Shown in pieces: positions 5,515-55,614 of a stretch of DNA of 64,000 nucleotides. A program made the position numbers and the translations under genes. The notes under the pieces are model-generated. The model saw nothing but the letters and a program-made list of their open reading frames with translations. It was not told the DNA's origin and made no database searches. The first letter of the stretch is position 1; each line of letters starts with the position of its first letter. The stretch is from a virus (taxonomy: Duplodnaviria > Caudoviricetes): positions 6,810 to 70,809 of IMG/VR virus record IMGVR_UViG_2840500688_000001; one strand, written 5' to 3'.

Positions 5515-5535
5515 GTGCCTAGAGCGCCTAATGTT

Positions 5536-5571
5536 GAATGCCTCGAGCATCAAAATAATGAGGTGTTCATG
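5536..5571 (+). promoter_or_regulatory. Com-binding hairpin plus SD-sequestering hairpin at the methyltransferase start
   Basis: GAATGCCTCGAGCATC (Mu site recalled as GAAUGCCUGCGAGCAUC); GAGCATC can alternatively pair with GGTGTTC, covering SD GAGGTG next to ATG 5569. Confidence 0.75.
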
Positions 5572-6360
5572 AAGAAATATACAAAAGCTCCATTACCATT
5601 TTTAGGCCAAAAGAGAAATTGGCTGCGTTTGATTAACGAAATCAATTTTGATCATATGACTGTGATTGATCTATTCGGCGGCAGTGGCATATTGTCGCAT
5701 GAGATCAAAAGAAATAATCCGAATGCTCGTGTGATTTGGAATGATTTTGATAACTATCAGGAGCGATTGAATCAAATTGAACAAACTGAAGCTTTGCGCC
5801 AAAAGATTGCCAAGGCGTGTAGTGTCTTTGAGAAAGGTACGAAATTAAGTGGGGCAGCCAAAGACGGCATACTTAAATTGATTAAAGAATCTGGTACAAC
5901 AGATTTTATTACCGTGTCGAGTTGGCTTTTATTCTCAGGCAATTATTGCCACTCTTTTGATTCATTGGCCAACAAAACATGGTACATCAGCCCGCCTAAA
6001 AATCCGCTGAATGCCGAGGATTACTTATCCAATGTAGAACGTGTCAGGATGGATTATAAAGAGCTTTTGAGTTTATACCCTGGTCATGAAAATACGGTTT
6101 TTATTGTAGATCCGCCGTACATCATGACCAATCAAACGGGATATTCAGCCAAGAATGATGCAAGGTTTAAGCTTGTTGATGCCATTCATTTATTCAAAGA
6201 ATTGGGATCTAGAAAGGCGGTTCTATTTTCTAGTACTAAATCAGAGTCTGATGAGTTATTGGATCTCATGGATATCAATGTGACAGAGCGCCATTCGTTG
6301 ATTGTGAGCCCAATCCCTGATCGAAAATACGAAGATTTATGCTACAGAATTAATTTCTAA
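5569..6360 (+). CDS. N6-adenine DNA methyltransferase (Hin1523/Hia5-like, mom-position)
   Basis: 'APLPFLGQKR', motif I 'DLFGGSG', motif IV 'VDPPY'; ORF 5515-6360, likely start 5569 after GAGGTG. Confidence 0.9.
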   Translation: MKKYTKAPLPFLGQKRNWLRLINEINFDHMTVIDLFGGSGILSHEIKRNNPNARVIWNDFDNYQERLNQIEQTEALRQKIAKACSVFEKGTKLSGAAKDGILKLIKESGTTDFITVSSWLLFSGNYCHSFDSLANKTWYISPPKNPLNAEDYLSNVERVRMDYKELLSLYPGHENTVFIVDPPYIMTNQTGYSAKNDARFKLVDAIHLFKELGSRKAVLFSSTKSESDELLDLMDINVTERHSLIVSPIPDRKYEDLCYRINF

Positions 6361-16267: not shown

Positions 16268-19200
16268 ATGAGCAGCTTAGGTACATTAACAATTGATCTG
16301 ATTGCAAAGACAGCTCAGTATACAGAAGGATTGAATAGAGCTGCTCGTCAAACCGAGCGTAATACACGTGAAATGCAACGATCTTTGCAGCAATTAGAGG
16401 CACAAGCAGAGGCAACACGTCTCGCATTTAAATCGACAATTGCAGGATTCTTATCTTTTCAAGGTGCGAAGTCATTAATTGATATTGGTGACAATTATAA
16501 AGCAATGGCAGAGCGCGTTAAGATGGCCACCAATAATCTTGAGGAATATGATTATGTTCAACAAAGATTATTGAAATCAACAGAAACGTCATTTCGATCG
16601 TTGGCAGAGGCTCAAGAGCTATTCATTGCCACAAGTGATAATTTGCGTGGTGGATATGGTTATTCCTTAAAAGAATCCTTAGATATAACAGACAGCTTAA
16701 GCTTTGCATTTGTGCGAAATGCAACAGCAGCTGATAAGGCAGCGTCTGCAATCAATGCTTATGATAAGGCTTTATCAAAAGGTAAGGTCAGCGCTGATGA
16801 ATGGCAATCAATTTCAGGGGCCGCTGGTACCATTGCACAAAATATTGCGGATGCTGTTGGTAAAACGGCTCAAGAAATTGATAGGCTTGGGCATAGCGGT
16901 AAATTAGCAATTGAGCAGTTAAATGAGGGGCTAAAAAAATCTAAGCAGGATAATGAAGATGCTGCAAATTCCATGGTGAATACTGTTAATGATGCATTGA
17001 CGATCATGAGTAATAAATTCCAAGCATTTTGGGGTGAATTTAATCGTGATACTGGCATTACATCGGGTGTTGCCAATAGCATTATTTTTCTATCTGATCA
17101 TTTAAAATATGCCGAAGGCATGATCTTATCGTTATCTGCGGTGATTGTGGGTAAATTGTCAGGTGCTTTAGCTGGATCAGCAATTGCTACAGGTCGTAGT
17201 GCATTGGCATTTTCAGCGGCAACCATTGAGGCTAACCGCTATCAGGTGGCATTGGCCAGAATGTCAGGGATGTCAGCAGCAGCTGCAAAAAGCCAAATTG
17301 CATTGGGTGTGGCCACAAGAGGTGCAAGTGCAGCAATGGGATTGCTAGGTGGTCCAGCAGGCTTAATTACGATTGCAGCTATGGGGTTGGTGTATTTTGC
17401 AGGATCGGCAGAACGTGCATTTGATGAAACCATTAAGTTATCGAATTCATTTTTGGGGCTCAAAGAAGATCTTGAAAGTTTGACAACAGCTCAGGCACAA
17501 AATGAATTGTTGAATCTGCAAAAACGCTATCAAGAAATTGCAGTTGAACAAGCAAAACTCATGGATCGTAAGAGTGAGCTTGAAAATCAACTTGAGAAAA
17601 TGGAGGCAAGAAAACAAGCCAGCTTAAAGCGTGGTGGGAAAGGATTCAGTGATTTAGATAAAACCAATTTTAAGAAGATTTCGAATGAACTGATTTCTAT
17701 TAATGCGCAAACCGATACACTTCAAAAAACATTAGGTAAATTATTTGAATTAGAAACGGATTTAATTCAGGTTAAAAATGGTAGTTATAGCAAACAGTCA
17801 TCTGTTATTACTGAAAAAGAATTAACACTTGCGGGCAAAGCTTTAGAATACTATGAAAATATCAATAAGCAGATATTTATGCTTAAGCATACAGGATCTG
17901 ATGCCGAATTGTTGTACCAAAGGCAATATGGATATTTAAAGGATATTGAAGACGTTGAATATCAGAGATTGTTACTTAGGCAGCGCGAATATGATACAGA
18001 ATTGCTATTGGCCAACAATCAAAAAGACCTCAATGCCATTCTCACTGAAACTAAAGAGAAATATGACAATATTGGGAAAAGTGTCAAAGAAATAACATTG
18101 GCAAGGGCAATTGATAAAGGAGCGACTGAAGAGCAAATTCAAGATTTGACAAAATGGCTGACGGCCATTAGTAGCGCACCAAAATCAGGTGGTAAAACAG
18201 CCTTAAATTATTTTGATGATAAGCTTAAATCGATCAATGAAGAGATCTATAAAATGAAGTCTCTGAATGAAGGTTTGAGGTTATTTGGTGGTGAAAGCCA
18301 ATATACGGCTGTCAGTGACTTGACTAGAGAATTTAATAATCAGCATAGCGTATTGGCAAAAATTAGCGCTCAGCAGCGTGATGTATTGATGATGCAAGCT
18401 CAGGAGCTTGATAATCAAAAGCAAATCAATGCGATTATGACATTCAGTCATGATTATGCGAATAATTTTGAGGATATGTACTTTGAATTAAGTCTTATTG
18501 GCCAAACTAAGCAAGCCATTGAAGAGCTGACATTTGCACGCGAAATGGAGAAAAGAGTCAAAGAGCTTAGCATTGGCATGAGTCCAGAAAATTTAGAAGC
18601 CATGCAAAAAGAGATGTCTAAAATCATGGCTTTGAGAGATGAATATAATGCTTTGAAAAATGCTATTGATAACAATCCAATGGCGGGTATCAATGAAGGT
18701 TTTAAAAGATATTTTGATGATGCAGGTACTGTACGTGACCAATGGGCGGATGCAACTCAAACAGCATTTAATGGCATGTCGGATGCATTTTCAAGGTTTG
18801 CAAGTGGTACCAAAGTAGATTTTAGACAAATGACGGTCTCTATTTTGCAAGATCTTTCACAAATATTAATTAAGGCGGCGATTGTAAATAGTTTAAAAAA
18901 TGCAAGTGCGGCTGGAGGTTTTTGGGGGTCTGTTGCCAGTGCATTTGGTTATTCTGGTGGTGGTTATACTGGGGCTGGTGGCGTTCATGAGCCTGCTGGG
19001 ATTGTTCATAAAGGCGAAGTGGTCTTTTCACAACGTGATATTGCCAAGTTTGGGGGTGTAGCGGCAGTTGAACGTATGCGTTTACGTGGCTATTCTAATG
19101 GGGGCATTGTAGGCGGGTCGGTGGTTAATCAGAATTATCACCAAAATAGTAATCAGCCTCAGCCCATTTCCATTGTGGTTAATGTTGCAGAAGATGGATC

Positions 19201-19315
19201 TACAGAGGTGATTGATAACAGTGCTGGCAAGGCTTTAGATAGACAAATTGAAGTCATTGTGAAGCGAGTGATTGCACGAGAAAGTAGACCAGGTGGTGGA
19301 CTGGCTAAAAGATAA
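16268..19315 (+). CDS. Tape measure protein (1015 aa)
   Basis: 'SLGTLTIDLIAKTA' start, tape-measure domain, Ala/Gly-rich helices, C-terminal 'GGYTG.GG..EPAGIVHKGE'. Confidence 0.95.
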   Translation: MSSLGTLTIDLIAKTAQYTEGLNRAARQTERNTREMQRSLQQLEAQAEATRLAFKSTIAGFLSFQGAKSLIDIGDNYKAMAERVKMATNNLEEYDYVQQRLLKSTETSFRSLAEAQELFIATSDNLRGGYGYSLKESLDITDSLSFAFVRNATAADKAASAINAYDKALSKGKVSADEWQSISGAAGTIAQNIADAVGKTAQEIDRLGHSGKLAIEQLNEGLKKSKQDNEDAANSMVNTVNDALTIMSNKFQAFWGEFNRDTGITSGVANSIIFLSDHLKYAEGMILSLSAVIVGKLSGALAGSAIATGRSALAFSAATIEANRYQVALARMSGMSAAAAKSQIALGVATRGASAAMGLLGGPAGLITIAAMGLVYFAGSAERAFDETIKLSNSFLGLKEDLESLTTAQAQNELLNLQKRYQEIAVEQAKLMDRKSELENQLEKMEARKQASLKRGGKGFSDLDKTNFKKISNELISINAQTDTLQKTLGKLFELETDLIQVKNGSYSKQSSVITEKELTLAGKALEYYENINKQIFMLKHTGSDAELLYQRQYGYLKDIEDVEYQRLLLRQREYDTELLLANNQKDLNAILTETKEKYDNIGKSVKEITLARAIDKGATEEQIQDLTKWLTAISSAPKSGGKTALNYFDDKLKSINEEIYKMKSLNEGLRLFGGESQYTAVSDLTREFNNQHSVLAKISAQQRDVLMMQAQELDNQKQINAIMTFSHDYANNFEDMYFELSLIGQTKQAIEELTFAREMEKRVKELSIGMSPENLEAMQKEMSKIMALRDEYNALKNAIDNNPMAGINEGFKRYFDDAGTVRDQWADATQTAFNGMSDAFSRFASGTKVDFRQMTVSILQDLSQILIKAAIVNSLKNASAAGGFWGSVASAFGYSGGGYTGAGGVHEPAGIVHKGEVVFSQRDIAKFGGVAAVERMRLRGYSNGGIVGGSVVNQNYHQNSNQPQPISIVVNVAEDGSTEVIDNSAGKALDRQIEVIVKRVIARESRPGGGLAKR

Positions 19316-19362
19316 TTAGTATATTCTCATTTAGTATTTATATTGACAAAATTGAGGATGTT

Positions 19363-19866
19363 ATGAAAAAAATATTAATTACTATAATGCCATTATTATT
19401 AACTGGATGTGTCACTACTGAAACTGTCGAATTATCAAATGAATTTAATGCAAAAGATGCTGCATTTATCTATAAATCTGGGAAAAATACAATTAAAGGA
19501 AATGCTTTTTTACGCCAAAATAGTGGTAATGTTGTAACATGTGCTGGTAATGATGTGATGTTAATACCCGTTACAGCATATTCACAAGAGAGAATGGGGC
19601 ATATTTATAAGTTAGAAGATGTAGGTTTTTTACCAATTTATAATAGTAAAATTACATTTAATAATGATAGTAATGATTATAAGTCTATGATTAAGAATGT
19701 GAAATGTAACTCGGATGGACAGTTTGAGTTTAATAATGTTGCCAATGGAAATTACTATGTCGTAGCTTATGTTATTTGGAAAGCCGGTAGCTATCAGGGC
19801 GGATCTCTTATGAAAAAAGTAAGTGTTAAAAATGGTAGTACAGAAAAGTTGATTATGACTTTATAA
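19363..19866 (+). CDS. Moron lipoprotein
   Basis: MKKILITIMPLLLTGC lipobox; beta-rich 'G.FEF.NVANGNYYV' prealbumin-like pattern; AT-rich. Confidence 0.8.
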   Translation: MKKILITIMPLLLTGCVTTETVELSNEFNAKDAAFIYKSGKNTIKGNAFLRQNSGNVVTCAGNDVMLIPVTAYSQERMGHIYKLEDVGFLPIYNSKITFNNDSNDYKSMIKNVKCNSDGQFEFNNVANGNYYVVAYVIWKAGSYQGGSLMKKVSVKNGSTEKLIMTL

Positions 19867-19888
19867 AATGTCTATTTAAAGGAAAGAT

Positions 19889-20641
19889 ATGTCTGGCATA
19901 TATAAGCATGCAAGCTATGAATTCAATGTTATTGAAGAAATTGGAGGCGGAGGATTTGGCAAAGTTTTTAGTGTCTCTTTGCCAACATGCGATTATAAAT
20001 ATGCGCTAAAAATATTTTCCCCAATTCAAGAAATTGCTGAAGCATCTTGTTTATCAGATGGTGAATTATTAGAAAGATTTCATCAAGAAATTTGGTATCA
20101 AATTAGCTGTAGGCATAAAAATATTGCGACTATTTGTGTTTTTCATGACTCAGATCCACCATTTTTTGTCATGGATATAGCTGATTATGACTTAAAAACA
20201 GCGATTGATAAAAATATACTGAGCACTTCAGATAAAGTAAAAGTTGTGTTAGATGTTATGAATGGGTTGGAATATTTGCATAATAAAGATTGGCTTCATC
20301 GTGATATAAAGCCTGCAAATATATTGTGCTTCAATGGTACATATAAATTGTCTGATTTTGGTCTAATAAAGAATTCTGGAAATGCTAAAAATCCGAAAGA
20401 TGTTATGAGTGCGATTGGATTAAGATTGGGGACAAATGGATATATGGCTCCAGAAGTTATGGATGCTTGTTTTTATTCAAAACAATCTGATATCTATGCG
20501 CTCGGTGTGGTTATTGCTCAACTCAAGATACCTGGATTTGATGCTATTGTTGATAATTGTACTAAATATTTTCCTAGACAGAGGTATCAGACTATATCCA
20601 TTCTAAGAGATGCAGTACGTAAGGAGATTGAGAATGTTTAA
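19889..20641 (+). CDS. Hanks-type Ser/Thr protein kinase
   Basis: GGGGFGKV, ALK, HRDIKPAN, DFG, GTNGYMAPE, SDIYALG. Confidence 0.95.
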   Translation: MSGIYKHASYEFNVIEEIGGGGFGKVFSVSLPTCDYKYALKIFSPIQEIAEASCLSDGELLERFHQEIWYQISCRHKNIATICVFHDSDPPFFVMDIADYDLKTAIDKNILSTSDKVKVVLDVMNGLEYLHNKDWLHRDIKPANILCFNGTYKLSDFGLIKNSGNAKNPKDVMSAIGLRLGTNGYMAPEVMDACFYSKQSDIYALGVVIAQLKIPGFDAIVDNCTKYFPRQRYQTISILRDAVRKEIENV

Positions 20642-21428
20642 TATAAAATCAGTTGCATCATTTTCGGAGCCTAGGGATAATATTTTTCTAGAAAATAGAA
20701 AGAATAATGAAGATTCTTTTGTATCGCCAATACGTAATAAAAATGGGTATGTATTTTGTATCGCTGATGGTCTTGGATCATATAAAGGCGCTTTAAATGC
20801 ATCGAGGTTCGTCTGTAGATTTTTGGAAGATAAAAAAAATATAGATCACTCATATTTAAGTCGGTTGTTTGCGGATGATTTGACCATTGAGTTTGGCAAG
20901 TATATTCAAAGTTTAGATAAAGAATATATAAAAGCTGCGACAACATTATCAGTCTGTTTTCTTGATGAATTTGGACTGAGTATTTGGCATGCTGGTGATT
21001 GTAGGGTATATATTAAAAAAGATAAGAAGCTCATACAAATGACAAGTGATCACACTCAGTATCAAAAATTGCTTAGTAAAAAAATTTACACTAAGAAAGA
21101 GTTAGAGGAACATGGTATTGGAAAAAACACCTTAACTACAGCGATATCATTGTCAATTCCAATAGAAGAAGAGTATTTATTTATCCCTATGGGGGACCTC
21201 AGAAAAGAATATGGAAATGAGTTATCTATTATAATTATGTCAGATGGTGCTCATCATTTTTGGGATTTGCGAAGAAGGTTTAGTGAAAAAACCATGTCTG
21301 ATATTGTGAAGTTGAGTAGTGCTTTACAAAGAAGAATCGAAAGAATGGGGGCTATTGATGACTATACGGTTGTTGCTGCAACATTTGATGTACAAAATAT
21401 AGCAGATATAAGATCTCACAAATTGTAG
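20634..21428 (+). CDS. PP2C/PPM-family protein phosphatase
   Basis: NED, IADGLG, ATTLS, GDCRVY, DHT, MSDG, DDYT; likely ATG 20634 overlapping the kinase stop. Confidence 0.93.
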   Translation: MFNIKSVASFSEPRDNIFLENRKNNEDSFVSPIRNKNGYVFCIADGLGSYKGALNASRFVCRFLEDKKNIDHSYLSRLFADDLTIEFGKYIQSLDKEYIKAATTLSVCFLDEFGLSIWHAGDCRVYIKKDKKLIQMTSDHTQYQKLLSKKIYTKKELEEHGIGKNTLTTAISLSIPIEEEYLFIPMGDLRKEYGNELSIIIMSDGAHHFWDLRRRFSEKTMSDIVKLSSALQRRIERMGAIDDYTVVAATFDVQNIADIRSHKL

Positions 21429-21450
21429 AGTGAAATTGATAAAAATACTA

Positions 21451-21473
21451 AGCCACCAATAGGGGGCTTTTTT
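21451..21473 (+). terminator. Terminator after the kinase-phosphatase moron
   Basis: AGCCACC-AATA-GGGGGCT plus T tract (one mismatch). Confidence 0.6.
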
Positions 21474-21490
21474 ATTGCCCAGAGGAAAGT

Positions 21491-21826
21491 ATGAATTATG
21501 AAATATTTAAGTGGATCCCTTTGGTAGAAGCCGAAGAGGAAATTGAGCCTTTGATTGATATTATCCAATTAGGGGATGGCGTTGAGCAGCGGCAAGCAAA
21601 GGGGCTGCGTAGGTATCGGACACTATTTAACGACCAAAAATTTATATCAAATGAGGCGGAGATTGATGAAATCGCCGCTTTTTTAATGCGCCATTTAACC
21701 CAACCTTTTTATTACAATATTGGTGGTAAGCGGTATCTAGTGCGTAAAGATGGTCCATTTAAAATTATCCGAAAAGGTGCAGACATTGCAGAATTAACAG
21801 CATCATTTGTCGAGGTGGTGAGATGA
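21491..21826 (+). CDS. Minor tail protein (lambda M-like)
   Basis: 'IQLGDGVEQRQAKGL', 'FLMRH...PFYY'. Confidence 0.85.
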   Translation: MNYEIFKWIPLVEAEEEIEPLIDIIQLGDGVEQRQAKGLRRYRTLFNDQKFISNEAEIDEIAAFLMRHLTQPFYYNIGGKRYLVRKDGPFKIIRKGADIAELTASFVEVVR

Positions 21827-28233: not shown

Positions 28234-29013
28234 ATGCAAACGGGTATTCTTAAAATTACTAAAAATAATCAAAAGGGCTCACAAATTGTTGAGCCCTTAA
28301 TTAATACGTTTCTTTATTTTTCGCAAGATGGCATCAGAAAGGTGACGACTAAAACTAATGCTCAAGGGCAATATTCTTTTGAGTTACCCATTGGATCTTA
28401 TCAGGTTAGTGTCAGCACTGGTGCTGACGGAAATGTTTTTCCATTACTAGGAGGGCGATTATTTGAGATGAAACAAGATAGTCCTACTAATACATTTGAA
28501 GAATGGCTTTATAATAAGCCCACTACTCTTAATAGCGATCTTTCAAATATCTTTCAAAACATTGAATCTAACTTACAATCTATGATTGAGGATGCTAGAT
28601 CTAAGGGCCAAGCTATTTTGGCATCATGTAAAGAGATTGAAAGAAATATTAGTGCTAAGTTAGATATCGAGGCCAGTAATAATATTAATGCAGATTACAC
28701 ATTAGTTGATTTTGGCACGATGATGCGTAATGAACGTAAAGTTCTACCTAACCCATTTGGTGATAACGTCCCTGTTTTAACTGTAGTGGAAATCTACTCT
28801 GAGAAGCTTGATAAGTGGGGGAGAACGGGGGAAAGTACGAGTGGTGCTTTTGTTACAGGCGGTATGATTTTAGGTGAAGGGATTTACGTTCAGGCAGGTC
28901 ATAGTACTATAGGTATGAACAATCCTGCCGTATCCGGCGGTGCTTTTACACCTGATAACCTAGCTATGGCTCCAGTGCGTATGCATGTATGGAAAATAGG
29001 GGGTTCTAAATGA
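28234..29013 (+). CDS. Side tail fibre-like protein
   Basis: N-terminal 'T.A.GQYSFELPIG.YQV' (Stf N-terminal-like), coiled coil, C-terminal beta domain. Confidence 0.7.
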   Translation: MQTGILKITKNNQKGSQIVEPLINTFLYFSQDGIRKVTTKTNAQGQYSFELPIGSYQVSVSTGADGNVFPLLGGRLFEMKQDSPTNTFEEWLYNKPTTLNSDLSNIFQNIESNLQSMIEDARSKGQAILASCKEIERNISAKLDIEASNNINADYTLVDFGTMMRNERKVLPNPFGDNVPVLTVVEIYSEKLDKWGRTGESTSGAFVTGGMILGEGIYVQAGHSTIGMNNPAVSGGAFTPDNLAMAPVRMHVWKIGGSK

Positions 29014-30343: not shown

Positions 30344-31309
30344 CTAGCTTTCTTCTAAGTCGTATTTGTCAAAATCAAATATCTTTTGGCCAAGTCGATG
30401 ATTCACTGAGTAGAATTTTCGGATCATTGGATACAGCTCATTTTTGTAAAAGACTTTCGCAAATGGTGCAGGATTACCAAATCCGCCAGCATTTGTTGCT
30501 TGAATACTCATGAGCACCAATGGCACACGATGAACGGTGGCAATGTCATCACGTGATACATCTTTGATATTGACGAACTCATCTTTGGCAGCAATCTGGC
30601 TAATGGGAATCAGCTGCACAGAATCTTTATCCCCTTTGGGCAAATGAACGAGCAGGTTATTAAAGTTACCTGACTGCTTTGTTTTTTTGAGTGTCTCTTC
30701 AATGGTTTTCATGCCCTTATCTGAAACATGTCCATTGATGGCGAGTATAAAGCCTGCATGCGATCCATTTTTGTAATATTTATAACGGAATAGGGTGCCT
30801 GCATGGTTTAATGCAATACTGAGCATGGCACTCAAATATGGTGGGATTCCATACACGTTTTGGTTCACATCATAAGCTTTGACATGAATCAGGTTGTTCT
30901 TTTTGATTTTCTCACCAAAGTTTTTGAGAAAGTAATAATTGCCATCTGTGCCAACGCGGGTATATTTGGCCATCACATGGCGATAGCGAATTGTATTGCC
31001 CACCAATGATTTAACAGGCTCAAGATAAGCATTGCCAAAAATCAGATAATCAGCAATGAAGGCTTCACACGATTCATAATCTAAAAAATGAGTATCTTTA
31101 AAAATAGAACTGAGGATGTTTTTTTTACAATCTAAAGCGGATTCATGATGGGTATTCAAACGAGGCAATTTGGTTAATGTGTCGTATGAAATGGGTGGAG
31201 CATAGTAACCATCAATGGTTTGGCAAGATAACATATCAATGAAATCGTGTGGACTGAAGATCTCGGGTTCACCCATGTTAAATGTTACTACATCATTATT
31301 CATAATCAT
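30344..31309 (-). CDS. Portal protein (P2 Q / PBSX family)
   Basis: 'YYAPPIS', 'FGNAYLE', 'YGIPPYL', 'KNGSHAGFIL', 'DIATVHRVP'. Confidence 0.93.
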   Translation of the reverse strand: MIMNNDVVTFNMGEPEIFSPHDFIDMLSCQTIDGYYAPPISYDTLTKLPRLNTHHESALDCKKNILSSIFKDTHFLDYESCEAFIADYLIFGNAYLEPVKSLVGNTIRYRHVMAKYTRVGTDGNYYFLKNFGEKIKKNNLIHVKAYDVNQNVYGIPPYLSAMLSIALNHAGTLFRYKYYKNGSHAGFILAINGHVSDKGMKTIEETLKKTKQSGNFNNLLVHLPKGDKDSVQLIPISQIAAKDEFVNIKDVSRDDIATVHRVPLVLMSIQATNAGGFGNPAPFAKVFYKNELYPMIRKFYSVNHRLGQKIFDFDKYDLEES

Positions 31310-31314
31310 TCTCT

Positions 31315-33057
31315 CTATAAAACTACAATATGTTCATGTTCAGTATCGACCGTTGTGCCATCGAATCGTTCATAGCCCAGCGCGTACATCGTTGCCCAAC
31401 TTAAATCCGCATGCCCATGTTCTTCATCTCTCACGGATTGGAACGTGGCATATTGCTGTGATTTGGTCATGGCATTTTTGATGTTTAAAAAACTGGATAA
31501 AAGATCCTGCCAACCTGCATCAAATTCTATTTTGCGCTCACGAAATAGGGTTTTGGCTTGTAGGACAAATAAGGTTTTTAAGGATAAATCGCTTTGGTAA
31601 CGCGTTAAGTTTGGATAGAAGTTTTCCACACGTTCAGCGATCACCAATCCCATGTTTCTAGTATCAATGCCAAGATGCACGACGTTGTAGCGATCTGTGA
31701 TTTCTTTGAGATAGCGCTCTTGATTGTCAAAGGAGACATCCTGCCAAAAGTGTTTTTCTAAAATGCGATATGGCTCATTTTTATTGGATGGAATGGCAAC
31801 CACAACACACGCAGCACCATCATTGGTGCGGGCAGGGTCATAGCCCACAGCTACTTTTTTACGGCCAAATGGTTTATGAGGTTTGGTTAAGGGTTCAAAG
31901 TCTGTCCATTTCTCCCATGAATCCACCATGCATGCGCTTAAATCATTAAAATTAAATGCGCTTTCCATGTCATCAAAGAATTCAAACTCAAACAGCTTTG
32001 AGAATTGATCTGGCGTATAACGCAGACGCAAACTATCTAAATCCACTAAATCAAAACCGCCTGCAATCGCATCATGAATGGTGATGATCTTACGGAATTT
32101 ACCATCTTCACACAGCCGCCCATTTTTAAGTGAGGCATGATCGACCTTAAAGGGTTTATTCTTTTTGTTTGAATGGTATTCAGCAGCCGTCCAAAATTTA
32201 TAGGCAGGGTGCTTTTTGCTAGAAGGCGTGGATAAATAATTAATGATAAAATTTTTATGTGTCGCACATGCGGTCACAACGGTTTGCAACTCTTCAAAGC
32301 GAGGCATCCAAAAGAATTCATCACAGGTCACATCACCTGTATAACCTTGGGCAGTGTATGGATTGGCACCTAAAAAATAAAAGTTCAGATCATCTTTAAA
32401 TTTAATGGCATCCCCGCCTGATAATTCAACCCCCGTCAGATTTTTAACAAAGGCCAACATGTAGCGTTTGGCTTGGAACGCCTGATTTTTACTGGCTGAA
32501 ATGTAAATCTGATTATGTTTGAGATTCACCAAACGGCGCAGGGCATAATAAGATAGAAAATAGGTAAAGCCAGCCTGTCGAGTTTTACCAAAAATGAATT
32601 CAGCCGAACTCTTTTTACTGTTTTTATATTTTTCAATGTCTTGAATGATCTGCGTTTGGAAGGGGAATAGATCCTTTAATCCCTCATTGATTTGGGATTG
32701 GAATTTTTCCCAATCGAATTGATCGCTATTGATTTGCGCACTGCGTTTTTTGCGTTGTGGCTTGGGTGAGTAGATGTTTTTCATTTGTACACCAAGCTCT
32801 TTAAACTCACGCAATTCATTTTCTGTTTTGGTGTTTTTCATCAGTAAACGAATGTATTTGAGCTGAAAAGCATCTTGGCAACGTGTGAAAAAATCCGCCT
32901 CATCCCATTTATCATTTTTGCGCCAATCGTAAATGGTGCTCTCTGGCGTGCCAATCATTTTGGAAATTTCAGATACGCGAAAGCCCGCGAAATAAAAGAG
33001 CCTTGAAAGTTCGCGTGGTTGGGTGTTTTCTGGTGTGATGAGCAATTCATTATTCAT
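31315..33057 (-). CDS. Terminase ATPase subunit (P2 P)
   Basis: 'KTRQAGFT', 'YISAS..QA', 'DEFFW', 'GYDPAR', 'HADLSWA'; ORF starts 33150, likely start 33057. Confidence 0.93.
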   Translation of the reverse strand: MNNELLITPENTQPRELSRLFYFAGFRVSEISKMIGTPESTIYDWRKNDKWDEADFFTRCQDAFQLKYIRLLMKNTKTENELREFKELGVQMKNIYSPKPQRKKRSAQINSDQFDWEKFQSQINEGLKDLFPFQTQIIQDIEKYKNSKKSSAEFIFGKTRQAGFTYFLSYYALRRLVNLKHNQIYISASKNQAFQAKRYMLAFVKNLTGVELSGGDAIKFKDDLNFYFLGANPYTAQGYTGDVTCDEFFWMPRFEELQTVVTACATHKNFIINYLSTPSSKKHPAYKFWTAAEYHSNKKNKPFKVDHASLKNGRLCEDGKFRKIITIHDAIAGGFDLVDLDSLRLRYTPDQFSKLFEFEFFDDMESAFNFNDLSACMVDSWEKWTDFEPLTKPHKPFGRKKVAVGYDPARTNDGAACVVVAIPSNKNEPYRILEKHFWQDVSFDNQERYLKEITDRYNVVHLGIDTRNMGLVIAERVENFYPNLTRYQSDLSLKTLFVLQAKTLFRERKIEFDAGWQDLLSSFLNIKNAMTKSQQYATFQSVRDEEHGHADLSWATMYALGYERFDGTTVDTEHEHIVVL

Positions 33058-33195
33058 GTGCTCATTCTCTATGGTTACGCGTAAAAAATAATCTCGTTTG
33101 AGTTTGCAACCCTTGGGGGCAAACTGTAATGACGTGCGTTCTGTTGCCATTAACGTAAAAATTGAATCCTCTTTTGTACGATTAGGATTCTATTC

Positions 33196-52692: not shown

Positions 52693-53005
52693 TTATGTGA
52701 TCAATATTACCAATGGTTTAACGCTCAAAAACATCACAGATAACGAGCCCACCATTATTTTATTCACGCGTAGCCACTGCACATCTTCTAAGAAAATGCT
52801 GCACATGCTCGATGAGTTCAGCAAACGTCATTTACACATTGCATGCGTCAATGTAGACATCAGCCCAAACAGCGTTGGGAAGAACATGATGCACCGCTTC
52901 AATATCAAGGTTGCACCTTCTTTTGTTGTGTTCAAACAAGGCAAAGAGGTGAACCGCGGATGTGGCTACACACAGTTTGTGAATTATATGACGAGTGAAA
53001 TGTAA
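52685..53005 (+). CDS. Thioredoxin-fold protein with degenerate CxxS site
   Basis: 'ILFTRSHCTSSKKM', 'VNVD', 'RFNIKVAPSFVVFKQGKEV.R..G' thioredoxin pattern. Confidence 0.7.
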   Translation: MTSYVINITNGLTLKNITDNEPTIILFTRSHCTSSKKMLHMLDEFSKRHLHIACVNVDISPNSVGKNMMHRFNIKVAPSFVVFKQGKEVNRGCGYTQFVNYMTSEM

Positions 53006-55614
53006 TGAAAATGGAACGCAGTCAGAGAGATGAAGTGGTGCGCCGCTTCATCGCAGAAACAGGGGCAAAGCCTCAAGGCAATGGCAAACGCTATAAAAAT
53101 GGCATTTGTCCAAGCTGTCAGAAAAAGAAATTATGGATATTTGGTGATGATCCGTGGAAGATCCAATGTGATAGTACCACGTGCGGTTATGAGATCTCCG
53201 CACGTGATCGTTATCCAGACATCTTTGAAAACTTTTCTAAACGCTATGCCCATGAAATGGCAGAAGATGGCCGCGCAATTGCTAAAGCATACTTGAGGGA
53301 AGCAAGGGGCTTTAACACCACATTGTGTGACCAATTCACGCAAGAAACGTTTTTTGATTATAGCACAAAAGTTTCCACACCAACGGTGCGTTTTCCAATG
53401 CCAGGGGATGGTTATTGGGAACGTCTGATTGAAAACTTGGAAAAGTTTGAGCAAAAAGCCCACTTCAAAAAAGGCTATTCATACAAAGGATTGGCTTGGC
53501 ATTTTAATGATCTTGATGTGACCAAAATTAATGAATTATGGGTGGTTGAAGGGATCTTTGATGCCATTGCATTAAGACATCACAATATTCATGCCATCAG
53601 TGCCATGAGTGCCAATAACTTTCCTGAACACACTTTAACGCAGATCTACCAAAAGAATCCGCGCTTAAATATTGTGATTGCCTTAGATTCAGACGAGAAA
53701 GGCAAACAGTCCGCCATTAAGTGGTTAAAGCTATGTGAAAAAATAGGATTCTTTTCTGACATCCGTTTGGCCATTACCAATGATGGCGATGATTGGAACG
53801 ATAAGCACATCAAAGAGCAATTAGATGATGAAGATATTGAAACCTATCTTCACCATGGCGCAGTGTTATCCGCAAGATCACCGATGCGCAAAGCATATTT
53901 GATGTATCAGCGCTATGAAAAGCAGCAGTTTTTCCTTGAGTTCAATTTCAATACGTATTGGGTCAAAGTGGATGTGAAGGCGATGCTTGAAGCCATCAAT
54001 AAAAACGATGAGGACGAGGAAACGGCATTTAAATCGTCTTGTACCATCACTGAGATCGCCAATTGTGTTACGAATATTCTGTACGCACAAAAAGAGTTGG
54101 ATACCAATGAGTTATTCTACTTTCTTGAAGTGGTCATGAAGAATAAGCGTAATAAAGATGCTTTTTCACCGAAGCAATTGTCCAGCGCGGGCGAGTTCAA
54201 GGCACGTGTGATGAATACGGTGTCAGGTGCGACATTTACAGGTGAAACAAAGCATTTAGATCAAATCTATCGTGTGAAAACGAGTGACATCAAAGACATT
54301 AGCACGGTGCCATTTTTAGGGTATGCCAAAGAGTTGGGTGCATATATTTTCCCTGAGTTTGCCGTTAAAAATGGCCGTGTCTATAAGCTCAATAAGGAAG
54401 AGTATTTTGAGTTGCCAGGGAACCAAAACATTAAGACAACTTTTTCAATGCCTGAGTTTGATCCAAGCATGGACTACCAAAATACATGGCACCAAGATTT
54501 CATTGATGTTTTTGGCCAAAAAGGATTGACGGTTTTAGCGTTTTGGCTCGGCTCATTATTCGTAGAACAATTGCGTGATGTTTATAAAGGCTTTCCATTT
54601 TTGGAACTCACAGGTGAAGCGGGTGCGGGTAAGTCCACCATTTTGCAATTCATGTGGAAACTCTCTGGGCGTGGTGGTGATTATGAAGGGGTCAATCCCA
54701 ATAACGGCTCTAAAGTGGGTTATTTCAGAACATTATCACAAGTGGCCAACTTGCCAACGGTGATGATTGAGTGTGAAGGCTTTAACTTAGAGGATCTCAA
54801 GTCCTTATACAATGGCGGCTACTTGAGAACAACGGGCCAAAAGAATAATGGCAATAACACCAACAGCCCTAAATTCAGAGGTTCATTGATTTTATCCCAA
54901 AATGAGCGAGCCATTACCGCAGGTTCACGCGATAACTTAATTGCGTTGTTGTCCCGCCTTGTTTATGTGCATTTTGATACGAGCAATCACACCTCTGAGT
55001 CACGCATTAAAGCCCGTCGATTAGAACAAATGTCAATGGATGAATTGTCAGGCTTTTTGGTGGAAGCACTTAAAAATGAAGATGCCATCTTAAAGTGTGT
55101 TCACTCAGTTTTTGAACAAAACAGAGCACGCATTATGGCATTGGAAGAGGTGCAAACAACGCGCATTGGCTTGACGCATGGCTTGATGCTCTCATTGTTG
55201 CAGGCTTTGAAGTTTTTAATGCCCATTCCTGAGCACACGTTGCGTGCAACTGAAGAGTACATTTGCCGCATTGCAATTGAACGCGATATTGAACTTAAAC
55301 AAGATCATCCAATTTTAGAACAGTTTTGGGAGGTGTATGAGTATCTCAATAATGAAGGTTTTGCGGTTAATCATTCCAGAAATGATGAGTATATCGCCAT
55401 CAACTTAAATCAGTTTTATGGATTGGCCGCAGAGATGCGCCAGCAGCTTGATGACATTAAAACAGTCAAAAAGATGCTGCCACACACAAGCAGGCACAAA
55501 TACATTGAGCACAATAAAGTTGTGAATTCTAAGTACAACGATGATGAGTACACAACCAGAGCAGGGAAGGGTTTTGGCTCATTGCGTTGTTATATTTTTC
55601 ATAAAGGTAAATAG
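53005..55614 (+). CDS. P4-alpha-like primase-helicase
   Basis: Zn ribbon 'CPSC...C...TCG', TOPRIM 'VVEGIFDA...ALD.D..G', Walker A 'GEAGAGKST'. Confidence 0.88.
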   Translation: MKMERSQRDEVVRRFIAETGAKPQGNGKRYKNGICPSCQKKKLWIFGDDPWKIQCDSTTCGYEISARDRYPDIFENFSKRYAHEMAEDGRAIAKAYLREARGFNTTLCDQFTQETFFDYSTKVSTPTVRFPMPGDGYWERLIENLEKFEQKAHFKKGYSYKGLAWHFNDLDVTKINELWVVEGIFDAIALRHHNIHAISAMSANNFPEHTLTQIYQKNPRLNIVIALDSDEKGKQSAIKWLKLCEKIGFFSDIRLAITNDGDDWNDKHIKEQLDDEDIETYLHHGAVLSARSPMRKAYLMYQRYEKQQFFLEFNFNTYWVKVDVKAMLEAINKNDEDEETAFKSSCTITEIANCVTNILYAQKELDTNELFYFLEVVMKNKRNKDAFSPKQLSSAGEFKARVMNTVSGATFTGETKHLDQIYRVKTSDIKDISTVPFLGYAKELGAYIFPEFAVKNGRVYKLNKEEYFELPGNQNIKTTFSMPEFDPSMDYQNTWHQDFIDVFGQKGLTVLAFWLGSLFVEQLRDVYKGFPFLELTGEAGAGKSTILQFMWKLSGRGGDYEGVNPNNGSKVGYFRTLSQVANLPTVMIECEGFNLEDLKSLYNGGYLRTTGQKNNGNNTNSPKFRGSLILSQNERAITAGSRDNLIALLSRLVYVHFDTSNHTSESRIKARRLEQMSMDELSGFLVEALKNEDAILKCVHSVFEQNRARIMALEEVQTTRIGLTHGLMLSLLQALKFLMPIPEHTLRATEEYICRIAIERDIELKQDHPILEQFWEVYEYLNNEGFAVNHSRNDEYIAINLNQFYGLAAEMRQQLDDIKTVKKMLPHTSRHKYIEHNKVVNSKYNDDEYTTRAGKGFGSLRCYIFHKGK

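What the first reader, a model, noticed from the sequence alone, without database searches (positions are those of the whole stretch)
19363..21428. Three-gene moron: lipoprotein + compact Ser/Thr kinase + PP2C phosphatase inside the tail operon
Seen: AT-rich genes inserted between the tape measure and M-like genes. The kinase and phosphatase are translationally coupled (8-nt overlap) and followed by a terminator. All catalytic motifs are intact, and the kinase has no TM or sensor domain. Established: phage 933W Stk and staphylococcal Stk2 are abortive-infection kinases, and the Pf-prophage kinase-kinase-phosphatase (PfkA/PfkB/PfpC) module is a toxin-antitoxin-like defence. Inference: a single-kinase 'KP' defence or lysogeny switch in which the phosphatase is the antitoxin. 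The lipoprotein may be an envelope sensor or exclusion factor.
Basis: partly seen in the sequence, partly recalled or inferred. Interest (0 to 1): 0.72.

Follow-up and report, generated by a model that had tools for sequence, protein, structure and literature searches.

The report
Swappable kinase-phosphatase cargo in phage tail
A prophage carries, between two tail genes, a mobile kinase-plus-phosphatase gene pair that a near-identical sister prophage replaces with a known anti-phage system, so the pair is probably an untested anti-phage switch, and the neighbouring lipoprotein is separate cargo.

Summary
Three AT-rich genes (29-33% GC against 39-40% in the flanks) sit between the tape-measure gene and the M-like tail gene. 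They are a lipoprotein, a bare 250-aa Hanks Ser/Thr kinase, and a PP2C phosphatase whose start overlaps the kinase stop by 8 nt. A hairpin with a U-tract follows.

They are not one functional module. The kinase-then-phosphatase (K>P) pair is a fixed two-gene cassette. In all 61 related provirus loci the phosphatase follows the kinase directly, at many different moron slots, and never with this lipoprotein. The lipoprotein belongs to a large PA1324-like family of putative carbohydrate-binding proteins. In other phages it usually lies beside the CI repressor, without a kinase.

The new evidence comes from two sister proviruses with 98-99.7% identical tail genes. One keeps the lipoprotein but has Lamassu (LmuA/LmuB) in place of the pair. 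The other has unrelated cargo. So this is a cargo-exchange slot, and the pair is allelic with a recognised defence system.

The pair is not a member of KKP, Stk2 or 933W Stk. It is best read as an untested single-kinase variant of phosphorylation-based toxin/antidote defence. This scan has already found the same cassette at least seven times in other genomes. Interest is moderate.

The parts
16268..19315 (+). Tail tape-measure gene; left backbone flank of the cargo slot
   Evidence: 1015-aa ORF. It is 99.5-99.7% identical in the sister proviruses L166 and L199. DNA homology to L199 ends at window position 19308.
19297..19325 (+). Sigma-70-like promoter candidate (TGGACT-17-TATATT) upstream of the lipoprotein; weak
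   Evidence: 9 of 12 consensus matches. The number of promoter-like sites in the region is not above the shuffled expectation, so this is a candidate only. The sequence is identical in L166.
19363..19866 (+). PA1324-like outer-envelope lipoprotein (putative carbohydrate-binding beta-sandwich); independent cargo
   Evidence: Lipobox LLTGC16, with two invariant Cys residues (C60, C115). Matches phrog_14789 at 1.7e-37. AlphaFold pLDDT 85. Foldseek finds 3qec/1xpn (PA1324) at E 2e-10, TM 0.68-0.77. The family profile finds 3qec at 2.4e-13. It is 98% identical in L166, where no kinase follows it.
19889..20641 (+). Bare Hanks-type (RD) Ser/Thr kinase, catalytic domain only; proposed toxin or effector
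   Evidence: PF00069 7.5e-37. PADLOC kinase-core matches: mad6 2.8e-38, PD-T4-6 1.5e-35, Stk2 7.8e-25. Matches phrog_2361 at 5.9e-51. All catalytic residues are invariant in alignment A1.
20634..21428 (+). PPM/PP2C Ser/Thr phosphatase, translationally coupled to the kinase; proposed antidote
   Evidence: 8-nt overlap and an AAGGAG ribosome-binding site. PF13672 5.5e-8. Matches phrog_5650 at 2.1e-37. Invariant D27, D45-G-x-G48, H119-x-G-D122-x-R124, D204-G205 and D242-D243. AlphaFold pLDDT 90 and a PPM fold.
21450..21476 (+). Terminator-like hairpin plus U-tract at the right border of the cargo slot
   Evidence: -8.4 kcal/mol, z -0.2. L166 and L199 have different stems (-8.6 and -10.6 kcal/mol) at the same position, followed by the same or a nearly identical T-rich tract. 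Homology to L199 resumes at window position 21463.
21491..21826 (+). M-like minor tail protein; right backbone flank
   Evidence: PF05939 1.2e-10. It is 98-99% identical in L166 and L199.

Best explanation
Shown:
- The slot between the tape-measure gene and gene M of this lambdoid prophage exchanges cargo.
- In this prophage it holds two independent acquisitions: a PA1324-like lipoprotein and a two-gene kinase-then-phosphatase (K>P) cassette.
- The cassette is a bare RD-type Hanks Ser/Thr kinase followed by a PPM/PP2C phosphatase. It moves as one unit among temperate phages of Gammaproteobacteria.

Inferred mechanism:
- The genes are transcribed in the lysogen. Because the lipoprotein stop is only 22 nt from the kinase start, the pair is probably co-transcribed with the lipoprotein. 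Transcription would stop at the hairpin before M.
- The start/stop overlap ties phosphatase synthesis to kinase synthesis. The phosphatase would then keep the kinase's activation loop and its cellular substrates dephosphorylated.
- When a superinfecting phage disturbs that balance, for example by inhibiting or titrating the phosphatase, the kinase would phosphorylate host and/or phage proteins. That would arrest the cell or the infection.
- This is a phosphorylation-based toxin/antidote switch of the kind shown for KKP.
- The lipoprotein would act separately at the envelope, most likely in lysogenic conversion or superinfection exclusion.
For: Fixed unit:
- The phosphatase follows the kinase directly in all 61 related provirus loci, and also in phages phiES15 and Flotzy and in one Pseudomonas genome.
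- Stop/start overlaps occur in 28 of 32 sequence clusters; 20 of these are the 4-nt ATGA type.
- Kinase and phosphatase distance matrices correlate: r = 0.80, with 0 of 2000 Mantel permutations reaching it.
- The cassette sits at several different slots, next to Q, lysis, small-terminase and repressor genes, with no conserved third gene.

Defence role:
- Sister provirus L166 has 98-99.7% identical TMP, lipoprotein, M, L and K genes. In place of the pair it carries LmuA (4.2e-49) and LmuB (9e-94).
- The junctions fall right after the lipoprotein stop and at the terminator.
- A third sister, L199, carries other cargo at the slot.
- The kinase core matches the defence-kinase models PD-T4-6, Stk2 and mad6.
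- KKP shows that a prophage kinase/PP2C set can be both a toxin-antitoxin system and a defence system (PMC11341870).

Both enzymes look active.

Moron features: low GC, and a hairpin with a U-tract kept in all three sisters with different stems.

Rarity: only the centre genome among 400 gammaproteobacterial species genomes matched at 1e-40. That fits accessory cargo.
Against: - No experiment exists for this two-gene form. Three full-text searches found none.
- PADLOC has no kinase-phosphatase system model. The phosphatase matches only a candidate model weakly (PDC-M21C, 1.6e-5).
- Of 122 neighbours of the cassette in other phages, only a few are defence-related. The association therefore rests mainly on one allelic swap.
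- The promoter is only a weak consensus match, and the hairpin is not significant on energy alone. Expression in the lysogen is therefore unproven.
- The cassette lies inside late operons, so it would also be transcribed during lytic growth.
- Allelic position does not prove the same function. Slots of this kind also carry non-defence morons.
Confidence: 0.55

Rival explanations
1. The pair is a regulator of prophage or host physiology rather than an immune system. In this reading it sets the phosphorylation state of a nucleoid protein or regulator and so tunes lysogeny maintenance, induction, or cross-talk with the adjacent P2-like prophage. This is KKP's other documented role.
For: KKP controls Pf prophage production through MvaU phosphorylation (PMC11341870). 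The window holds a second, P2-like prophage directly downstream. In several other phages the pair lies next to repressor or regulator genes.
Against: The pair sits at many unrelated slots in unrelated phages, which argues against a role tied to one phage's circuitry. Near-identical sister prophages do without it. It is allelic with Lamassu, not with a regulator. This reading and the defence reading do not exclude each other.
Confidence: 0.2
2. The pair serves the phage's own lytic cycle, as a host-takeover or counter-defence kinase like the T7 kinase. It would be made with the late genes, and the phosphatase would limit collateral damage.
For: The cassette lies inside late operons here and in most relatives, next to Q, lysis, terminase and tail genes. 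T7 kinase disarms defences by broad phosphorylation (PMC13645617; listed, abstract only).
Against: Late expression comes too late for takeover or counter-defence, and the T7 kinase is an early gene (my own knowledge). A kinase with its own opposing phosphatase is not expected for one-way takeover. A terminator-like hairpin insulates the cargo from M in all three sisters. The low GC and the swap with a host-protecting system fit a lysogen-expressed moron.
Confidence: 0.1
3. The pair is a purely selfish addiction module. In this reading a stable kinase and a labile phosphatase stabilise the prophage, with no benefit against other phages.
For: The toxin/antidote logic and the tight coupling fit. 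The pair is sporadic and mobile.
Against: A chromosomally integrated prophage gains little from post-segregational killing. Most toxin/antidote pairs at phage moron slots that have been tested protect against phages (my own knowledge). The allelic Lamassu also argues against this reading.
Confidence: 0.1
4. This is the first reader's three-part system, in which the lipoprotein is the envelope sensor or exclusion arm that works together with the kinase and phosphatase.
For: Only 22 nt separate the lipoprotein stop from the kinase start, so the three genes are probably one transcript here.
Against: There is no co-occurrence. None of the 61 related viral kinase-phosphatase loci, nor phiES15, Flotzy or the one bacterial genome locus, has the lipoprotein, and none of the 32 lipoprotein loci has the pair. 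L166 keeps the lipoprotein with Lamassu instead. The kinase has no membrane or sensor domain that could receive a periplasmic signal.
Confidence: 0.05

Closest known systems
KKP (PfpC-PfkB-PfkA) prophage kinase-kinase-phosphatase module (Guo et al. 2024, PMC11341870)
   Same: Both are prophage-borne Hanks kinase(s) plus a PF13672-type PP2C phosphatase in one operon, found in Gram-negative temperate phages. KKP has an experimentally shown toxin (kinases) and antitoxin (phosphatase) logic, and it gives defence when a phage protein inhibits the phosphatase.
   Different: This module has one kinase, not two. The kinase is a bare catalytic domain with no cold-shock or FHA domain. [quoted passage not shown] KKP needs both kinases for activity. 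FHA-bearing kinases match this kinase no better than generic ones, at about 1e-15. I did not compare directly with the PfkA, PfkB and PfpC sequences.
The same bare-kinase plus PP2C cassette in Cronobacter phage phiES15 (gp21-gp22) and Escherichia phage Flotzy (CDS 8-9)
   Same: The two-gene architecture is the same, with overlapping stop and start. The kinase is 35-37% identical and the phosphatase 39-43% identical. Both sit in moron slots of lambdoid phages.
   Different: The slots differ (Q-to-lysis, and lysis-to-terminase). There is no lipoprotein. These genes are annotated only by domain and have not been studied.
Single-gene kinase defences: Stk2 (Staphylococcus), PD-T4-6 (E. coli) and 933W Stk
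   Same: Each is a Hanks-type kinase acting, or proposed to act, as an abortive-infection effector. The PADLOC models match the kinase core.
   Different: Those are single genes with extra C-terminal regions and no dedicated phosphatase. The matches cover only the core: positions 10-201 of 311 for PD-T4-6 and 156-311 of 500 for Stk2. 933W Stk is 23% identical and lies in the cI operon.
Cargo hotspots of temperate phages (for example the P2 and P4 hotspots, and lambda morons such as bor and lom)
   Same: A fixed position between conserved genes carries different, low-GC, terminator-bounded cargo in near-identical phages, and that cargo includes a recognised defence system.
   Different: The position is between the tape-measure gene and M. 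I did not find this position described as a hotspot, but I did not search the literature for it specifically.
PA1324 of Pseudomonas aeruginosa (PDB 3qec, 1xpn), deposited as a putative carbohydrate-binding protein
   Same: The lipoprotein family matches it by profile (2.4e-13) and by fold (TM 0.68-0.77). The size is about the same, roughly 170 aa.
   Different: Here the protein is phage-borne and lipidated. Sequence identity is about 20%. Neither protein has a demonstrated function.

Membership tests
Hanks-type (eukaryotic-like) Ser/Thr protein kinase | Gly-rich loop, VAIK Lys, alpha-C Glu, HRDxKxxN catalytic loop, DFG, APE, subdomain IX Asp and subdomain XI Arg | tested here: met
   PF00069 7.5e-37. 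G19/G21/G24, K41, E67, H137-R138-D139-K141-N144, D156-F157-G158, D201 and R232 are invariant; A187-P188-E189 is at least 90% conserved.
PPM / PP2C phosphatase | Conserved metal-binding Asp motifs (motif 1 xED, motif 2 DGxG, GDxR, motif 8 DG, motif 11 DD/DN) and the PPM beta-sandwich fold | tested here: met
   Invariant D27, D45/G46/G48, G121-D122-R124, D204-G205 and D242-D243. The profile finds PstP, Stp1 and tPphA at about 1e-20. The AlphaFold model (pLDDT 90) matches Stp1 at TM 0.72-0.77.
KKP module (Guo et al. 2024) | A three-gene set: a PP2C phosphatase followed by two kinases | tested here: not met
   There is one kinase, and the order is kinase then phosphatase.
KKP module (Guo et al. 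2024) | PfkA-like kinase fused to a cold-shock domain, and PfkB-like kinase fused to an FHA domain | tested here: not met
   The 250-aa kinase contains only the kinase domain; Pfam finds no CSD or FHA. Family members are 243-278 aa.
KKP module (Guo et al. 2024) | Located in a temperate prophage or other mobile element | tested here: met
   The record is classed as a provirus and the genes lie in a lambdoid tail operon. Relatives lie in 61 provirus loci.
KKP module (Guo et al. 2024) | Kinase toxicity neutralised by the phosphatase, and protection against lytic phages | not testable with these tools
   This needs expression and phage-challenge experiments.
PD-T4-6 / Stk2 single-gene kinase defence | A full-length match to the family model, in a single-gene system | tested here: inconclusive
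   E-values are strong but the matches cover the kinase core only: PDLC04053 positions 10-201 of 311, and Stk2 positions 156-311 of 500. Here a dedicated phosphatase is always attached.
933W Stk | Close sequence relationship and a position in the cI (pM) operon | tested here: not met
   23% identity over 251 columns, E 2e-11 in the pairwise comparison. 933W stk lies downstream of cI; this kinase lies in the tail operon.
Phage moron (Hendrix-type) | Extra DNA between genes that are adjacent in related phages, with deviant base composition | tested here: met
   GC is 29-33% against 39-40% in the flanks. The content of the slot differs among three near-identical proviruses. That H and M are adjacent in lambda is my own knowledge.
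Phage moron (Hendrix-type) | Own promoter and terminator, so that the cargo is expressed from the prophage | tested here: inconclusive
   The promoter is only a 9-of-12 consensus match, and such sites are not enriched over shuffles. A hairpin with a U-tract is present, and equivalent hairpins occur in both sisters, but the folding energy is not significant.
PA1324-like protein family (the lipoprotein) | Sequence-profile and fold match to PA1324 (3qec, 1xpn) | tested here: met
   Profile E 2.4e-13. Foldseek E 2e-10, TM 0.68/0.77. Carbohydrate binding itself is only the depositors' label and was not tested.
Bacterial lipoprotein | Signal peptide with a lipobox [LVI][ASTVI][GAS]C | tested here: met
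   The N-terminus ends in the lipobox L-T-G-C16. G15-C16 is invariant in the family alignment. No dedicated predictor was available.

The most novel reading that the evidence does not exclude
The bare-kinase plus PP2C pair is a self-sufficient, two-gene, phosphorylation-based abortive-infection system. It would be a minimal form of KKP that needs neither a second kinase nor a sensor domain, with the phosphatase acting as the phage sensor. The tape-measure-to-M junction of lambdoid siphophages would then be a previously unnoticed exchange slot for defence cassettes. Isogenic natural prophages carrying the pair, Lamassu or a membrane-effector candidate would give a ready-made comparison set.
Probability: 0.45. 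Interest if true: 0.6.

Novelty: new variant of a known kind. Interest (0 to 1): 0.42.

Why it matters
If the pair protects lysogens, it would be the simplest known kinase/phosphatase immune switch: one catalytic-domain-only kinase and one phosphatase. That would show that the two-kinase architecture and accessory domains of KKP are not required.

The three near-identical prophages differ only in the cargo at one tail-operon slot. They offer a natural isogenic series for measuring what each cargo contributes. They also suggest that tail operons should be included when prophages are mined for defence systems.

The finding also corrects the three-gene reading. The lipoprotein is a separate member of a large, uncharacterised family of phage and bacterial envelope proteins. 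That family typically sits beside phage repressors and deserves its own test.

Tried and rejected
Searches that found nothing:
- DNA-level searches of the cassette found no match in the phage collection. Flotzy's cassette found no match in complete E. coli genomes.
- A single-sequence scan of viral contigs with the kinase found no close relative, so I switched to an alignment query.
It gave only one family member, in Pseudomonas koreensis.
The short contigs carrying the closest kinase homologue (90% identical) and lipoprotein homologue (74% identical) could therefore not be inspected.
- A survey of 400 gammaproteobacterial species genomes with the phosphatase profile found only the centre genome at 1e-40.
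- Rfam found no RNA family in 19000-21700.
- The repeat search found no convincing flanking repeats. A 13-nt imperfect inverted repeat (19331-19343 and 21439-21451) brackets the three genes, but its right arm is not conserved in L166, so it is probably chance in AT-rich DNA.
- PADLOC and Pfam found nothing for the L199 cargo.

Readings rejected:
- KKP membership (wrong gene number, order and domains).
- A close relationship to 933W Stk (23% identity).
- The lipoprotein as a Cor-type exclusion protein. The only similarity is in the signal peptide, residues 1-27, E 0.008.
- The lipoprotein as part of the kinase module.
Full report
**1. What is there**

The window is part of a 70.8-kb IMG/VR provirus record. 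Positions 1 to about 29.4 kb hold a lambdoid siphophage, with terminase, portal, capsid and tail genes all on the + strand. A second, P2-like prophage begins near 30.3 kb.

Three ORFs lie between the 1015-aa tape-measure gene (16268-19315) and the M-like minor tail gene (21491-21826; PF05939). M is followed by L (PF05100, 2e-61) and K (NlpC/P60).
- 19363-19866, a 167-aa lipoprotein;
- 19889-20641, a 250-aa kinase;
- 20634-21428, a 264-aa phosphatase.

The phosphatase start at 20634 has an AAGGAG Shine-Dalgarno sequence and overlaps the kinase stop by 8 nt. The three genes have 29.2, 32.9 and 32.3% GC, against 39.4% for the tape-measure gene and 39.9% for M-L-K. GC3 values show the same contrast.

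Downstream there is a hairpin at 21450-21469 followed by a U-tract. The hairpin has one mismatch, the terminator scan missed it, and its energy is no better than shuffled sequence (z -0.2). No Rfam family matches the region.

**2. The enzymes are intact**

*Kinase.* It matches Pkinase at 7.5e-37. In an alignment with 23 relatives, every catalytic element is invariant or nearly so:
- Gly-rich loop, K41 and E67;
- H137-R138-D139-K141-N144;
- D156-F157-G158, and APE;
- D201 and R232.

The HRDxKxxN loop marks an RD-type Ser/Thr kinase. From general knowledge of the family, such kinases are switched on by activation-loop phosphorylation. The protein consists of the catalytic domain and nothing else.

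*Phosphatase.* Pfam matches only its N-terminal half (PF13672, 5.5e-8). However:
- an alignment of 31 family members shows all PPM metal-binding motifs invariant: D27, D45-G-x-G48, G121-D122-x-R124, D204-G205 and D242-D243;
- the family profile finds PstP, Stp1 and tPphA at about 1e-20;
- the AlphaFold model (pLDDT 90) superposes on Stp1, tPphA and PstP at TM 0.7-0.77 over the full length.

**3. The kinase-then-phosphatase (K>P) pair is a fixed, mobile two-gene cassette**

The kinase belongs to a coherent family of 243-278-aa proteins, found in Acinetobacter, Wohlfahrtiimonas, Arsenophonus, Photorhabdus, Xenorhabdus, Gallibacterium, Klebsiella, Serratia, Erwinia and Plesiomonas.

An alignment-based scan of IMG/VR returned 61 loci carrying a family-level kinase. 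In every one a homologue of the phosphatase lies immediately downstream. The 19 loci carrying only generic kinases lack it. The same pair occurs in two cultured phages: Cronobacter phage phiES15 (gp21-gp22, between Q and the lysis genes) and Escherichia phage Flotzy (between the spanin and the small terminase).

The loci fall into 33 clusters at 85% kinase identity. In 28 of the 32 clusters where both genes could be called, the stop and start overlap; 20 of these have the 4-nt ATGA type. Pairwise distances of kinases and phosphatases correlate (r = 0.80; 0 of 2000 permutations reach it), so the two genes diverge together.

The neighbours differ from locus to locus. They include endolysin, spanin, holin, Q, small terminase, repressors, HNH endonucleases and integrases, and there is no conserved third gene. 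Only a few of 122 neighbours hit PADLOC models.

The cassette is rare in species-representative genomes. In a sample of 400 gammaproteobacterial species, only the centre genome matched at 1e-40.

**4. The lipoprotein is separate cargo**

None of the kinase-phosphatase loci contains a homologue of the lipoprotein.

The lipoprotein belongs to phrog_14789 (1.7e-37) and to a large family: 1894 cluster representatives at E <= 1e-3, nearly all about 170 aa. The few members with a name are called "hypothetical protein". The lipobox Cys and two further Cys residues are invariant.

Its AlphaFold model (pLDDT 85) matches P. aeruginosa PA1324, deposited as a putative carbohydrate-binding protein. The match is E 2e-10 with TM 0.68-0.77, and the family profile finds the same entry at 2.4e-13.

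Thirty-two provirus loci encode a relative, and none has the kinase or the phosphatase. The commonest neighbours are CI-type repressors and other regulators. In Pseudomonas phage vB_Pae_U9 the gene follows the repressor directly, on the same strand. That is a position typical of genes expressed in the lysogen. It fits lysogenic conversion or superinfection exclusion at the envelope, but this is inference.

In this window only 22 nt separate the lipoprotein stop from the kinase start. The three genes are therefore probably one transcript. That is a local accident of insertion, not a conserved design.

**5. The decisive context: a cargo-exchange slot**

Two other proviruses share this phage's tail genes almost exactly.

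| Provirus | Shared backbone | Cargo between the tape-measure gene and M |
|---|---|---|
| This window | reference | lipoprotein + kinase-phosphatase pair |
| L166 (IMGVR_UViG_2843054924_000002) | TMP 99.7%, lipoprotein 98%, M 99%, L 99.6%, K 98% | lipoprotein + LmuA/LmuB |
| L199 (IMGVR_UViG_2837715220_000002) | TMP 99.5%, M 98% | 166-aa, 49-aa and 220-aa ORFs; no lipoprotein, no pair |

*L166.* Between the lipoprotein and M it carries two overlapping genes. They match LmuA (4.2e-49; Cap4-type nuclease domain, PF14130) and LmuB (9e-94), the core of the Lamassu defence system. The DNA alignment breaks immediately after the lipoprotein stop codon and resumes at the hairpin.

*L199.* None of its three ORFs has a Pfam or PADLOC hit. 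Protein-atlas look-alikes are leads only: a GNAT-like fold for the 166-aa ORF and a PycTM-like membrane effector for the 220-aa ORF. DNA homology to the window stops at 19308 and resumes at 21463.

Neither sister record contains the kinase anywhere else.

All three cargos end in a different GC-rich hairpin (-8.4, -8.6 and -10.6 kcal/mol). The window and L199 then share the same T-rich tract and ribosome-binding region of M, and L166 has a closely similar one. A different stem at the same place in each phage is better evidence for a functional terminator than the energy of any one stem.

The slot therefore behaves like the cargo hotspots known from other temperate phages. Here the kinase-phosphatase pair is allelic with a recognised anti-phage system.

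**6. Most likely mechanism**

*Shown:* the cassette is foreign and mobile, both enzymes have intact catalytic motifs, the two genes are translationally coupled, and the cassette occupies a slot that elsewhere holds Lamassu.

*Inferred:*
- The genes are expressed from the prophage and terminated before M.
- Coupling ensures that phosphatase is made whenever kinase is made.
- The phosphatase keeps the RD kinase and its targets dephosphorylated.
- An infecting phage upsets this balance, and kinase activity then arrests the cell or the infection.

This is the logic shown experimentally for KKP. There the PP2C phosphatase PfpC is the antitoxin, and phage T4 Gp59 inhibits it (PMC11341870).

I put this reading at about 0.55. 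The rivals are:
- a regulatory role in lysogeny (0.2), which is not exclusive of defence;
- a lytic-cycle takeover or counter-defence role (0.1);
- a purely selfish addiction module (0.1);

**7. Comparison with known systems**

*KKP* is defined as a PP2C phosphatase followed by two kinases, one fused to a cold-shock domain and one to an FHA domain. Both kinases are needed for activity. This cassette has one bare kinase and the opposite gene order, so it works like KKP in outline but is not a member.

*PD-T4-6, Stk2 and mad6.* The PADLOC models match only the kinase core.

*933W Stk* is 23% identical and lies in the cI operon.

Three full-text searches found no study of the two-gene form. A fourth search, for PD-T4-6, found none either.

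Earlier agents in this scan reported the same bare-kinase plus PP2C cassette at least seven times in other genomes, mostly E. coli prophages, and reached the same conclusion. My results agree with theirs. What this window adds is a new slot (tape-measure gene to M), the natural swap with Lamassu, and the separation of the lipoprotein.

**8. Verdict**

The cassette is a new variant of a known kind: a single-kinase, kinase-first relative of phosphorylation-based toxin/antidote defence modules. It is untested experimentally and has already been seen repeatedly in this scan. Interest is moderate (0.42). The most useful outcome is the three-member natural series of near-identical prophages, which makes the defence hypothesis directly testable.

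Noticed in passing
L166:6668-9405: A sister provirus carries a two-gene Lamassu (LmuA with a Cap4-type nuclease domain, and LmuB) inside its tail operon. It sits at the slot where this window has the kinase-phosphatase pair. No LmuC-like third ORF was seen.
   Followed up: partly
L199:4266-5913: A third sister provirus fills the same slot with ORFs of 166, 49 and 220 aa and no Pfam or PADLOC hits. Atlas look-alikes suggest a GNAT-like fold for the 166-aa ORF and a PycTM-like multi-pass membrane protein for the 220-aa ORF. These are leads only; together they might be another defence candidate.
   Followed up: partly
window 30344-56000: A second, P2-like prophage lies directly after the lambdoid one. 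Its portal and large terminase genes are on the minus strand (30344-33150), followed by capsid and tail genes on the plus strand and a Toprim-domain protein at 53005-55614. The 'provirus' record is therefore two prophages in tandem.
   Followed up: partly
window 20634-21428 versus phrog_5650: The phosphatase aligns to positions 288-524 of a 565-position PHROG profile. Some phage relatives may therefore carry an N-terminal extension of about 290 residues, or a fusion. I did not examine this.
   Followed up: no
L054:1554-2870 and L058:921-2252: Two distant relatives have kinases of 438-443 aa with a C-terminal extension. A diverged PP2C follows each one (22-26% identity).
   Followed up: no
L060:606-2534: In one provirus the kinase ORF is truncated (136 aa). 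A 129-aa ORF separates it from a longer (366-aa) phosphatase ORF. This may be a disrupted cassette.
   Followed up: no
window 19331-19343 and 21439-21451: A 13-nt imperfect inverted repeat brackets the three cargo genes. Its right arm is not conserved in L166, so it is probably chance in AT-rich DNA.
   Followed up: partly
window 28234-29013: A 259-aa ORF downstream of the J-like tail gene has a weak match, below threshold, to the carboxypeptidase-regulatory-like domain. The lipoprotein gives weak matches to the same fold class.
   Followed up: no
window 5515-6360: A type II adenine methyltransferase (PADLOC MTase_II 5.5e-45; Pfam D12 class) lies in the lambdoid prophage. Other notes of this scan on this window already cover it.
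   Followed up: no
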